DNA from: Naegleria gruberi
Lineage: Eukaryota
DNA: 1,186 bases
Strand: one strand, 5' to 3'
Assembly: GCA_000004985.1 (NCBI GenBank)
Contig: GG739514.1
Numbering within the stretch: position 1 is the stretch's first letter; each line of letters opens with the position of its first letter. Below are positions 3 through 1,186 of the stretch, in pieces. Made by a program: the position numbers and the translations under genes. Below the pieces are notes generated by a model. The model did not search any database. It worked only from the letters and a program-made list of their open reading frames with translations, and was not told the origin of the DNA.

Positions 3-1013
3 TACATTCATTTCTATGCATGTTTTGTGAGAGCTGTCAAACAATTCTACAGAGATTGGAGAAATTTGATATTTGAAATTCTCATTTCCTTTGTTGTTGG
101 TTTGCTTATTGGAGTATTATTTAATGGTCTTGAATTTATTGGAAGTGTTTCAAGTTCAAAATATAGCAAATGTCCAATAGAAATCAGAGCTGGTTGCATG
201 CTTCCTCAATCGGATACGATTGCTCCATACTCATCTTTCCTCGTTTTGGCCATTGCATTGATATCTATAATGAGAGGTTTGAGAGTTTTTGGATTTGAAA
301 TTGAGAATTTCAAAAGAGAATCTCATGTAGGTCTCAATTCTTGGATGTACTTTTTATCGAAGGATTTGATTTCAATTTTTGTGATTGCTGTCATTTCTTT
401 CAGTACTACATTTGGCATGTTATCTGCATTACCACATACTAACTTTTTCATTCTCTATGCCATTGTATTTCTAACAATTATGGCTGGTTTTCCAATTGGT
501 TATACATTGTCATTCTTCTTTGATCCACAAATAGCTCAATTGGCAGCTGCCTTAGTAGTTGTAGTATTTTACAGTTTTGGAGGAAATAATCCAACCATTC
601 CTGAAATTGAAAAGCTTTCTCCAGTTCTTGCCTACAGTCACGTTATCACCTATTTTAGATATATTAGAGGTTTAATTTATATGGAAGAACTTATTACAAG
701 AAGAGAAGATAACGACATTGCATCAGCTCTTAAGGTGAATGGATATGAAATTGAAGCAATTTCATTCTACTTTTATGCTCTCTTCTTTTGGATTGTAGTA
801 TTCAGGTATATGGCAGTATATTGTATGTGGGCTTGGAAACCACGTTCTCTGTTCAGTAAGATTAATTTCCTATCAAGGAGATTGAGGGCAGCAGCTTTAA
901 AAAAAATCATTCGAAAAATTTACAGAGGATTTTGTTGCATTGAGGATTTTAGTACTGTATCAAAGGCTAATCGGAAGGATGTCTGCAAATTTGAGGCAAG
1001 TGCAAAACGTTAG
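3..1013 (+). CDS. ABCG-family (White/PDR-like, ABC-2 type) ABC transporter, C-terminal transmembrane domain. The gene is 5'-partial, and the NBD would lie upstream of the window.
   Basis: The frame is open from the first in-frame codon of the window (..YIHFYACF-VRAVKQFYRDW..), with no upstream stop, so the GTG at 27 is not a real start. Six hydrophobic helices occur with ABCG spacing: TM1 LIFEILISFVVGLLIGVLF; a loop; FLVLAIALISIM; the ABCG signature 'RVFGFEIENFKRESHVGLNSWMYFLSKDL' (cf. ABCG 'ERElf.rE..sGlY....Yfl(s/a)K.l.dlP'); ISIFVIAVISFSTTFGM; FFILYAIVFLTIMAGFPIGY; LAAALVVVVFYSFGG ('fsGf' motif); the extracellular loop 'NNPTIPEIEKLSPVLAYSHVITYFRYIRGLIYMEEL' (cf. 'ip.wl.Wl.ylS...Y...al..NEf'); and TM6 FYFYALFFWIVVFRYMAVYCMWAW. 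Stop TAG is at 1011-1013. Confidence 0.85.
   Translation, partial: YIHFYACFVRAVKQFYRDWRNLIFEILISFVVGLLIGVLFNGLEFIGSVSSSKYSKCPIEIRAGCMLPQSDTIAPYSSFLVLAIALISIMRGLRVFGFEIENFKRESHVGLNSWMYFLSKDLISIFVIAVISFSTTFGMLSALPHTNFFILYAIVFLTIMAGFPIGYTLSFFFDPQIAQLAAALVVVVFYSFGGNNPTIPEIEKLSPVLAYSHVITYFRYIRGLIYMEELITRREDNDIASALKVNGYEIEAISFYFYALFFWIVVFRYMAVYCMWAWKPRSLFSKINFLSRRLRAAALKKIIRKIYRGFCCIEDFSTVSKANRKDVCKFEASAKR
288..368 (+). other. ABCG signature segment between TM2 and TM3 (E..F.RE...G.Y....Y.LSK), part of the ABC2_membrane domain.
   Basis: Translation FGFEIENFKRESHVGLNSWMYFLSKDL matches the conserved ABCG/White 'ERE(l)f.rE..sG.Y....Y.lsK.l' block. Confidence 0.7.
837..1010 (+). other. Atypical basic C-terminal cytosolic extension of the ABCG transporter after TM6 (KPRSLFSKINFLSRRLRAAALKKIIRKIYRGFCCIEDFSTVSKANRKDVCKFEASAKR).
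   Basis: Canonical ABCG proteins terminate within a few residues of TM6. Here ~58 further residues follow. They are rich in K/R (14 of 58 residues) and include a putative amphipathic stretch LRAAALKKIIRKIYRG and a CC pair. The last 35 nt overlap the next gene. Confidence 0.5.
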
Positions 1014-1186
1014 AGTTGTTGCTCGTTTTAGACCAATAACAACTAAGGAAAAACAAGAGAAAACTTCATACAAATTAACATACGATTTTGACGGAGACCA
1101 TACTGTTAAGGTATCAACTGATGATCAAGCCATTGGAAATAATTCCTTCATTCTTGATAAAGTATTTAAGAACGATACAAAACAGG
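979..1186 (+). CDS. Kinesin motor protein, N-terminal motor domain. Kinesin-1/KHC-like. 3'-partial, continuing beyond the window.
   Basis: The ATG at 979 is the first Met after an in-frame TAA at 898-900, with a purine at -3 (aggATGt). Translation is MSANLRQVQNVRVVARFRPITTKEKQEKTSYKLTYDFDGDHTVKVSTDDQAIGNNSFILDKVFKNDTKQ. 'NVRVVARFRP' is the kinesin motor β1 motif (cf. IKVVCRFRP / IKVVARFRP). 'SFILDKVFKNDTKQ' matches 'SFTFDRVF....Q..V(Y)'. Spacing and content resemble fungal/animal kinesin-1 N-termini (…KF.G.DTV.I..K.Y.FDRVF…). There is no in-frame stop to the window end. Confidence 0.85.
   Translation, partial: MSANLRQVQNVRVVARFRPITTKEKQEKTSYKLTYDFDGDHTVKVSTDDQAIGNNSFILDKVFKNDTKQ
1006..1035 (+). 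other. Kinesin motor β1 strand motif (NVRVVARFRP).
   Basis: Direct translation of frame 1. This is a conserved kinesin N-terminal motif preceding the P-loop, which would lie downstream of the window. Confidence 0.75.

What the first reader, a model, noticed from the sequence alone, without database searches (positions are those of the whole stretch)
837..1010. ABCG transporter with an unusual ~58-residue basic C-terminal tail after TM6
ABCG/White-type transporters, such as human ABCG2 ending '...LKKYS', normally stop almost immediately after the sixth helix. Here a K/R-rich extension follows TM6. LRAAALKKIIRKIYRG could form an amphipathic basic helix, as seen in calmodulin-binding or membrane-association segments. 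There is also a CC dipeptide that could in principle be S-acylated. If real, it is a lineage-specific regulatory or trafficking appendage. If not, it is 3' UTR or intergenic sequence read through because no stop happens to occur (chance open extension in AT-poor-stop context).
Basis: partly seen in the sequence, partly recalled or inferred. Interest (0 to 1): 0.5.

Follow-up and report, generated by a model that had tools for sequence, protein, structure and literature searches.

The report
ABCG tail, distal part not native
The open reading frame does run 57 codons past the last membrane helix of a Naegleria gruberi ABCG-type transporter, but only the first 15 codons are the gene's own conserved tail; the remaining 42 are the upstream flank and start of a neighbouring kinesin gene, read in the wrong frame after a breakpoint on a tiny 1,186-bp orphan scaffold.

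Summary
Frame 3 stays open from the Lys after TM6 (837-839) to TAG 1011-1013, giving 57 further residues with net charge +12.

The window is an entire 1,186-bp scaffold of the Naegleria gruberi NEG-M assembly. The ORF, tail included, is already public as predicted protein XP_002667985.1 / D2W6R1.

The tail is composite:
- **Codons 840-884 (PRSLFSKINFLSRRL)** are conserved in a 98.3%-identical metagenome contig (L001) and in N. fowleri.
- **At 885/886** all similarity stops. Both relatives continue with TGR...P.R.KM... and an invariant Gly. The window continues with sequence that has no counterpart.
- **93 nt later, at 979,** a kinesin gene starts in another frame. The ABCG stop lies 35 nt inside it.

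The flagged amphipathic helix and CC dipeptide therefore sit in non-homologous read-through, whose length is within chance (P about 0.06).

Whether the join is a cloning or assembly chimera or a very recent NEG-M rearrangement is unresolved; I put it at roughly even odds.

The family-level point survives. In the profile search, 33 distinct relatives carry 29-94-residue, mostly net-basic tails; the named ones are all Heterolobosea. Twenty-three more distant relatives stop 8 residues after TM6. Interest is low.

The parts
3..839 (+). Transmembrane domain of an ABCG-type half-transporter, from just before TM1 to the Lys that ends TM6 (MWAWK). The gene runs off the left edge of the scaffold.
   Evidence: Pfam ABC2_membrane and ABC2_membrane_7 above their cut-offs. 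70% amino-acid identity to N. fowleri FDP41_010625. 98.3% nucleotide identity to L001 over 196-885, with 8 synonymous and 3 non-synonymous differences.
198..1013 (+). Public gene model NAEGRDRAFT_77105 (EFC35241.1, XP_002667985.1, UniProt D2W6R1; 271 aa, 'predicted protein'). It already includes the whole tail.
   Evidence: P0082 sits on a contig of length 1186. Its sequence maps exactly to window 198-1013 in frame 3.
840..884 (+). Genuine proximal tail PRSLFSKINFLSRRL, the conserved start of the family-wide cytosolic tail.
   Evidence: Identical in L001. N. fowleri has PRSLFSKMSFHFKKW. N. fowleri paralogues share the PRSLFSKI opening, and most long-tailed relatives start with a P-x-S motif.
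885..886 (.). Breakpoint. The last base shared with L001 is 885 and the sequences are unrelated from 886 on. Codon 885-887 is AGG (Arg) here and ACT (Thr) in L001.
   Evidence: The BLASTN alignment ends abruptly at window 885 / L001 691 after 85 identical bases. Sequences compared directly. There is no GT at the junction, so it is not an intron donor.
885..1013 (+). Distal 42 codons (RAAALKKIIRKIYRGFCCIEDFSTVSKANRKDVCKFEASAKR) plus TAG. This is read-through with no homologue and holds the flagged amphipathic stretch and the CC.
   Evidence: No alignment to the N. fowleri tail at E<=100, whereas the L001 tail aligns with it at E=1e-6. Gly 16-18 is absent. The open length has chance P about 0.06. 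Codon usage is no better than open-frame shuffles (P 0.27-0.42), but that test has low power.
886..978 (+). 93 nt of 5' flank of the kinesin gene (untranslated leader or promoter region). Contains an A8 run at 899-906.
   Evidence: It lies between the breakpoint and the kinesin ATG. In the kinesin frame there is a TAA at 898-900 and no ATG before 979.
979..1186 (+). First 69 codons of a kinesin motor gene (MSANLRQVQNVRVVARFRPITTKEK...FILDKVFKNDTKQ). It runs off the right edge and is in frame 1.
   Evidence: Translation. Pfam Kinesin (model positions 1-55) and Microtub_bd match, both below cut-off because the fragment is short. All PDB sequence hits are kinesins; the best is KIFC3 at E=0.0012, aligned from the start of the motor domain. 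Three distant kinesin loci were confirmed by tblastn.

Best explanation
The tail is a composite of native and foreign sequence. The window is a whole 1,186-bp orphan scaffold of the N. gruberi NEG-M assembly. It carries the 3' two-thirds of the membrane domain of an ABCG-type half-transporter. After TM6 the gene's own cytosolic tail begins (PRSLFSKINFLSRRL, 840-884). At 885/886 the native sequence stops. In a closely related strain and in N. fowleri it would continue with about 38-42 more codons (TGR..., an invariant Gly, then P-x-R-x-K-M and a K/R cluster) and a stop. Here it is replaced by the 93-nt upstream flank of a kinesin gene and then that gene's coding start at ATG 979. The ABCG frame meets no stop for 42 codons and ends at a TAG 35 nt inside the kinesin gene. 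The K/I/R-rich amphipathic stretch and the CC are therefore what A/T-rich non-coding DNA yields in an open frame (AAA, ATT, AGA, TGT TGC), not an evolved calmodulin-binding, membrane-binding or acylation module. Shown: the composite structure, the breakpoint, the neighbouring gene, and the ancestral state in relatives. Not shown: how the join arose. It is either (i) a chimeric clone or mis-join, which is easy in a scaffold the size of one or two Sanger reads, or (ii) a real, very recent NEG-M-specific deletion or rearrangement that gave the protein a brand-new, unselected C-terminus. I rate these about even, with a slight lean to (ii). Inferred for the genuine family tail: a juxtamembrane helix followed by a polybasic cluster, in some paralogues with terminal Cys clusters. 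This would sit on the cytosolic face of the membrane and bind acidic lipids, or serve trafficking or regulation. Nothing was tested.
For: Provenance: the 90% cluster of P0001 contains N. gruberi XP_002667985.1 on a contig of length 1186, and its sequence equals window 198-1013. Breakpoint: window 196-885 is 98.3% identical to L001 (11 substitutions, 8 of them synonymous, plus one homopolymer indel) and similarity ends abruptly at 885. Ancestral state: the L001 tail TGRFSTWFSNKIIQPLRMKMKRNKYKEVDNSEVNPFKQ aligns with the N. fowleri tail at E=1e-6, while the window's distal tail gives no alignment. Gly at tail position 16-18 is present in all of the closest relatives (P0001, P0002, P0004, P0005/71, P0006, P0007, P0011); the window has R-A-A. 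Neighbouring gene: the kinesin N-terminus starts at 979 in frame 1 and the ABCG stop is at 1011-1013. Chance: an open run of 42 or more codons has P=0.058-0.061. Context: same-strand gene spacers in the N. fowleri loci seen are about 260-800 bp, against 93 nt between the breakpoint and the kinesin ATG, and a negative spacer if the ORF is real. In L001 the gene downstream of the ABCG is not a kinesin but a convergent gene. Its NEG-M orthologue (XP_002668332.1, 98% identity) lies on another small scaffold of 7,579 bp. No kinesin lies downstream of the ABCG gene in N. fowleri.
Against: The distal tail matches the general theme of the family's tails. It has a high helical hydrophobic moment (0.78, P=0.017). 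Its CC sits at tail positions 32-33, where N. gruberi D2VBP4 (position 32) and Willaertia KAL9646021 (position 33) also have CC beside K/R. Its codon score in the ABCG frame (0.12 per codon) lies within the range of genuine in-frame windows, and two genuine N. fowleri tails also fail the shuffle test, so coding potential cannot settle the matter. No other N. gruberi protein carries this membrane domain or this kinesin N-terminus. The two halves are therefore not obviously duplicated in the main assembly, which argues against a simple chimera of two well-assembled loci.
Confidence: 0.8

Rival explanations
1. The whole 57-residue tail is a genuine, evolved C-terminus of this gene or of a paralogue. 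It would be a basic amphipathic helix plus a di-Cys acylation site, like those at the ends of other Naegleria and Willaertia family members. The sharp loss of similarity to L001 would mark the edge of a gene-conversion tract or a paralogue boundary, not loss of coding sequence.
For: Hydrophobic moment 0.78, P=0.017. CC at tail positions 32-33, as in D2VBP4 and Willaertia KAL9646021, and CCC at the end of D2VBP6. The frame is kept across the junction. The codon score lies within the in-frame range.
Against: There is no homologue of the distal 42 residues among 5.8 billion protein clusters other than the gene model itself. The Gly shared by all closest relatives is missing. The stop lies 35 nt inside the kinesin coding sequence and only 93 nt separate the junction from its ATG. 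Codon usage is no better than open-frame shuffles. K, I, R and F richness is what A/T-rich DNA yields in an open frame. The features were picked out after the fact.
Confidence: 0.08
2. The sequence is colinear and the read-through comes from a point sequencing error (lost stop or frameshift) or from a 3' UTR that happens to be open. There would be no rearrangement.
For: The scaffold is tiny and probably rests on few reads. There is an A8 run at 899-906.
Against: From 886 on the DNA is unrelated to L001, not shifted: BLASTN with word size 7 finds nothing beyond 885. The native 38 codons and the downstream gene seen in L001 are absent from the window. A kinesin gene follows instead.
Confidence: 0.02
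3. ABCG and kinesin form one fused gene, joined by a short intron (for example 856-925, GTAAG...TACAG, 70 nt) or by a 1-nt error in the A8 run. Either would place the kinesin motor in frame after TM6.
For: Frame 1 is open from 901 into the kinesin. Seven GT..AG intervals give an in-frame junction.
Against: 7 of 24 intervals is the one-third expected by chance. The candidate donors lie inside the conserved coding segment PRSLFSK, which is translated in all relatives. The kinesin has its own ATG 10 residues before the first motor strand, in the same register as the N-terminal constructs of kinesin-1 in the PDB. No family member carries a motor domain.
Confidence: 0.02

Closest known systems
ABCG (White/PDR-type, NBD-then-TMD) half-transporters such as human ABCG2 and ABCG1, Arabidopsis ABCG25, yeast Pdr5 and Candida Cdr1
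   Same: The membrane domain matches ABC2_membrane and ABC2_membrane_7. In full-length paralogues the nucleotide-binding domain precedes the membrane domain. The best solved-structure sequence matches for paralogue P0070 are Cdr1, AtABCG25, Pdr5, ABCG2 and ABCG1.
   Different: Canonical ABCGs end a few residues after TM6; ABCG2 ending in ...LKKYS is my own recollection, not tested here. In this clade, 33 distinct long-tailed sequences carry 29-94 further residues, and full-length members have a 300-1,000-residue N-terminal extension before the NBD. The PDB matches come through the NBD, not the tail.
The orthologues themselves: metagenome contig L001 (ENA ERZ929261 k127_166004) and N. fowleri FDP41_010625
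   Same: Same gene. L001 is 98.3% identical in DNA up to 885 and N. fowleri is 70% identical in protein. The TM6 end and the start of the tail (KPRSLFSK) are identical.
   Different: Both continue with TGR...P.R.KM... and their own stop, and a different gene follows. The window switches to kinesin flank at 886. The N. fowleri copy looks degenerate, with frame changes and missing NBD segments.
N. gruberi paralogues D2VBP6 (XP_002678576.1) and D2VBP4 (XP_002678688.1), and Willaertia magna KAL9646021.1
   Same: Same subfamily, with a long basic tail after TM6. Their tails end in Cys clusters beside K/R (KKMCCCFK, KIKCCKKDD, KLCCVKQRK), a theme the window's distal tail resembles.
   Different: The distal tails do not align at sequence level. 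In those proteins the Cys cluster sits within 2-6 residues of the C-terminus, whereas here 24 more residues follow. Acylation has not been tested in any of them.
Read-through C-termini of gene models at chimeric or rearranged junctions in draft assemblies
   Same: Orphan scaffold about the size of one or two Sanger reads. Blunt junction inside a conserved coding segment. The ORF ends at the first chance stop, inside the next gene.
   Different: Chimerism is not proven. No second annotated copy of either half exists in NEG-M, so the join could be real.

Membership tests
ABCG-type ABC transporter | Membrane domain of the ABC-2 type (Pfam ABC2_membrane / ABC2_membrane_7) above the curated cut-off | tested here: met
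   39.4 bits against a cut-off of 26.9, and 47.4 bits against 22.7.
ABCG-type ABC transporter | Reverse domain order: nucleotide-binding domain N-terminal to the membrane domain | tested here: inconclusive
   The window starts inside the membrane domain, so this copy cannot be checked. Paralogues have ABC_tran before ABC2_membrane. The N. fowleri orthologue shows the NPSDEILRTL end-of-NBD segment upstream of TM1.
ABCG-type ABC transporter | C-terminus within a few residues of TM6 | tested here: not met
   57 residues follow TM6 here, 53 and 57 in the orthologues, and 29-94 across the 33 long-tailed relatives. 23 more distant relatives end after 8 residues.
   The window has MWAWK-PRSLF. The same pattern occurs in most of the 33 long-tail sequences.
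   The window has R-A-A at positions 16-18. All the closest relatives have Gly there. There is no alignment of the distal tail to N. fowleri, whereas L001 aligns at E=1e-6.
Basic amphipathic helix (calmodulin-binding or membrane-association type) | High helical hydrophobic moment with net positive charge | tested here: met
   muH 0.78 for LKKIIRKIYRGFCCIEDF, P=0.017 against shuffles; tail net charge +12. This is a property of the sequence only. The genuine orthologous tails do not show it (0.47 and 0.46, P about 0.5).
Basic amphipathic helix (calmodulin-binding or membrane-association type) | Conservation of the segment, and actual binding | tested here: not met
   The segment is absent from both orthologues. 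Binding cannot be tested with these tools.
S-acylated juxtamembrane Cys motif | Cys residues conserved at the position and shown to be acylated | tested here: not met
   The CC has no counterpart in L001 or N. fowleri. CC or CCC recurs in three paralogous tails but these do not align. Acylation itself cannot be tested here.
Kinesin motor (downstream gene, 979-1186) | Match to the start of the kinesin motor domain | tested here: inconclusive
   Pfam Kinesin 15.5 bits (cut-off 29.3) over model positions 1-55, and Microtub_bd 17.9 bits (cut-off 27), on only 69 residues. All ten PDB hits are kinesins, best E=0.0012, aligned from the start of the motor domain. The nucleotide-binding motifs lie beyond the window.

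The most novel reading that the evidence does not exclude
The join at 885/886 is real in NEG-M and the ORF is translated. A rearrangement younger than the roughly 1.7% divergence from the L001 strain would then have swapped the conserved tail of an ABC transporter for 42 residues drawn from the non-coding leader and out-of-frame start of a kinesin gene. That raw sequence happens to reproduce the family's theme of a basic amphipathic helix plus a di-Cys. This would be a freshly born C-terminal extension and a same-strand gene overlap, caught before selection has acted.
Probability: 0.2. Interest if true: 0.4.

Novelty: new variant of a known kind. Interest (0 to 1): 0.15.

Why it matters
The practical point is a caution. 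The public protein D2W6R1 / XP_002667985.1 ends in 42 residues that are probably not part of the native protein. Motif or localisation predictions built on them (amphipathic helix, palmitoylation) would be spurious.

The real feature is modest. A small clade of ABCG-type transporters carries a 29-94-residue, mostly net-basic tail after TM6, where more distant relatives stop after 8 residues. All its named members are Heterolobosea. Some Naegleria and Willaertia paralogues end in Cys clusters beside K/R. This is a testable handle on trafficking or lipid-dependent regulation of ABCG transporters in Naegleria, but it does not bear on a long-standing open question.

Tried and rejected
- **Intron at the junction:** rejected. 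There is no GT at 886, and L001 and N. fowleri read straight through. The only intron seen is canonical GT..AG, lies elsewhere, and occurs only in N. fowleri.
- **ABCG-kinesin fusion by splicing:** 7 of 24 GT..AG intervals are in frame, which is chance level.
- **Codon-usage test:** the window's distal tail does not beat open-frame dinucleotide shuffles (P 0.27-0.42), while the L001 tail does (P<=0.011). Two genuine N. fowleri tails also fail, so the test is inconclusive.
- **Independent copies of the junction or of the kinesin's native upstream region:**
  - The exact-product look-ups of the window ORF found nothing.
  - The kinesin peptide has no word-sharing protein.
  - The GTDB and IMG/VR scans for a 25-mer from 928-952 gave nothing.
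  - N. gruberi gene positions are not in the contig index.
- **Synteny:** no kinesin lies downstream of the orthologue or of two paralogues in N. fowleri.
- **Repeats:** none explain the junction.
- **AlphaFold2 on a 3-sequence alignment:** pLDDT 43, unusable. The tail was drawn as a helix at pLDDT 57-58.
- **Literature search (Naegleria + ABCG + ABC transporter):** nothing relevant.

Full report
**What is in the window**

Frame 3 is open from the left edge to TAG 1011-1013. It matches the ABC-2 membrane-domain models ABC2_membrane and ABC2_membrane_7 above their curated cut-offs. The ABC2_membrane_7 match ends at residue 277 of 336, the MWAWK end of the last helix.

Positions 837-1010 encode K + PRSLFSKINFLSRRLRAAALKKIIRKIYRGFCCIEDFSTVSKANRKDVCKFEASAKR. 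That is 57 residues after the Lys, with 16 K+R, 4 D+E, and CC at tail positions 32-33.

Frame 1 has an ATG at 979 followed by MSANLRQVQNVRVVARFRPITTKEK...FILDKVFKNDTKQ, which runs off the right edge. This is the start of a kinesin motor:
- It matches Pfam Kinesin (model positions 1-55) and Microtub_bd, both below cut-off because only 69 residues are available.
- All ten PDB sequence hits are kinesins, aligned from the first strand of the motor. The best is KIFC3 at E=0.0012.

The ABCG ORF therefore ends 35 nt inside the next gene.

**Provenance**

The closest proteins are a metagenome protein (P0001, 98% identity) and N. fowleri FDP41_010625 (P0002, 70% identity). The 90% cluster of P0001 also contains N. 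gruberi NEG-M 'predicted protein' EFC35241.1 / XP_002667985.1 / D2W6R1 (NAEGRDRAFT_77105, 271 aa), on a contig of length 1186. Its sequence equals window 198-1013.

The window is therefore a complete 1,186-bp orphan scaffold of the N. gruberi reference assembly. The tail is already part of a public, uncharacterised gene model.

**The breakpoint**

The metagenome contig L001 (1,403 bp) aligns with window 196-885 at 98.3% identity. There are 11 substitutions, 8 synonymous and 3 non-synonymous, plus one T5/T6 indel. The last 85 bases before the junction are identical. The alignment then stops dead at 885.

| | Sequence after ...aaggagattgA |
|---|---|
| L001 | ctggacgattctct..., encoding TGRFSTWFSNKIIQPLRMKMKRNKYKEVDNSEVNPFKQ* |
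| Window | gggcagcagcttta... |

In L001 a convergent gene follows 51 nt after the stop.

The N. fowleri orthologue continues, without an intron, with TGRMGVFLDRRVVTPVRAKMSSRRRHLLDTHVSLDPTSGTMV*. The L001 and N. fowleri distal tails align (E=1e-6 pairwise; shared TGR, P-x-R-x-K-M). The window's distal tail aligns with neither.

The L001 arrangement is therefore ancestral and the window is the derived or artefactual state. There is no GT at the junction, so it is not an intron.

From 886 to 978 there are only 93 nt before the kinesin ATG. Same-strand spacers in the N. fowleri loci I saw are about 260-800 bp. No kinesin follows the orthologue or two paralogues in N. fowleri.

**Is the distal tail more than chance?**

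| Test | Result |
|---|---|
| Open run of 42 or more codons from 885 | 5.8-6.1% of Markov simulations |
| Codon usage of 888-977 in the ABCG frame | 0.12 per codon; not distinguishable from open-frame dinucleotide shuffles (P 0.27-0.42 under three training sets) |
| Same codon test on the L001 tail | Clearly coding-like (P<=0.011) |
| Same codon test on two genuine N. fowleri tails | Both fail |
| Hydrophobic moment of LKKIIRKIYRGFCCIEDF | 0.78, P=0.017 against shuffles |

Because genuine tails also fail the codon test, I treat it as inconclusive.

It is a post-hoc property of a K/I/R/F-rich peptide, which is what AAA, ATT, AGA and TTT-rich DNA gives. The genuine orthologous tails do not share it (0.47 and 0.46).

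**The family**

A profile of P0001 + P0002, searched against 1.84 billion representatives, found only 66 proteins at E<=1e-3. All named members are Heterolobosea: N. fowleri (three loci), N. gruberi D2VBP6 and D2VBP4, Willaertia magna and Acrasis kona.

Full-length members are 900-1,650 aa, with an N-terminal extension, then ABC_tran, then the ABC-2 membrane domain. By sequence, the closest solved structures to paralogue P0070 are Cdr1, AtABCG25, Pdr5, ABCG2 and ABCG1.

After TM6, 33 distinct sequences carry 29-94 further residues, usually starting P-x-S-aromatic. Most are net basic (up to +10); four are net acidic or neutral. Twenty-three more distant hits end 8 residues after the aligned column. 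A long, mostly basic tail is therefore a real trait of this clade.

Among the closest relatives, Gly at tail position 16-18 is invariant. The window has R-A-A, and the breakpoint falls one codon before it.

Three paralogues end in Cys clusters beside K/R: KKMCCCFK, KIKCCKKDD and KLCCVKQRK. The window's CC echoes this theme but does not align with any of them.

**How the join arose (unresolved)**

For an artefact:
- The scaffold is about the size of one or two Sanger reads or one small insert.
- The join is blunt.
- It falls inside a conserved coding segment.
- It leaves a negative spacer to the next gene.
- The NEG-M orthologue of L001's downstream gene (XP_002668332.1, 98% identity) sits on another small scaffold of 7,579 bp. 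The ancestral region is therefore evidently fragmented in this assembly.

For a real, recent rearrangement:
- No other N. gruberi protein carries this membrane domain or this kinesin N-terminus. The two halves therefore do not look like copies of well-assembled loci.

I put the two at roughly even odds. In either case the distal 42 residues are not an evolved appendage.

**Verdict**

A lineage-specific tail exists in this clade and in the first 15 residues here.
- Interest is low.
- The useful outputs are the caution about the public gene model and the note that heterolobosean ABCG-type transporters carry long C-terminal tails, some ending in Cys clusters.

Noticed in passing
window 979-1186 (+): Start of a kinesin motor gene that the public annotation of this scaffold apparently does not model. 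No protein among 5.8 billion clusters shares even three 5-residue words with these 69 residues, so the N-terminus of this N. gruberi kinesin seems to be missing from public proteomes.
   Followed up: partly
L002 about 4500-6850 (N. fowleri VFQX01000006.1; same in L003): The N. fowleri orthologue looks degenerate. Against paralogue P0070 the tblastn pieces change frame repeatedly (3/1/1/3/3/1/1). P0070 residues 236-362 and 416-518 (part of the NBD) have no counterpart. A net 20-nt deficit removes the family-conserved NFKRES motif. It is annotated as two separate hypothetical proteins.
   Followed up: partly
L001 91 / window 285-286: The metagenome contig has T6 where the window has T5. This shifts the frame and explains why its gene call starts at MYFLSK. 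It is either a sequencing error or a real lesion.
   Followed up: no
C-termini of P0010 (N. gruberi D2VBP6), P0027 (N. gruberi D2VBP4), P0029 (Willaertia KAL9646021.1): Tails end in Cys clusters flanked by K/R (KKMLKKMCCCFK, KIKCCKKDD, KLCCVKQRK). These are candidate S-acylation sites after a basic stretch.
   Followed up: partly
P0009, P0014, P0031, P0038, P0054 (N-terminal regions): Several family members carry long N-terminal extensions with repeated Cys-rich CPxGxYC-like units before a membrane anchor and the NBD. This is unlike canonical half-size ABCGs.
   Followed up: no
P0016, P0019-P0021, P0033, P0034 and 17 others: More distant hits of the same profile all end 8 residues after TM6, with a shared ..NRDK(K/R)K-like C-terminus. 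They form a short-tailed sister group of unknown taxonomy.
   Followed up: no
window 899-906 and 901-978: There is an A8 run just after the breakpoint. Frame 1 is also open from 901 into the kinesin, so a 1-nt length error in the run would fuse the two ORFs. GT..AG intervals that would do the same occur at chance frequency.
   Followed up: yes
N. gruberi scaffold of 7,579 bp (not readable here): This scaffold holds NAEGRDRAFT_76755, the orthologue of the gene that lies 51 nt downstream of the native ABCG stop in L001. It is the obvious place to look for the missing native tail of this gene.
   Followed up: no
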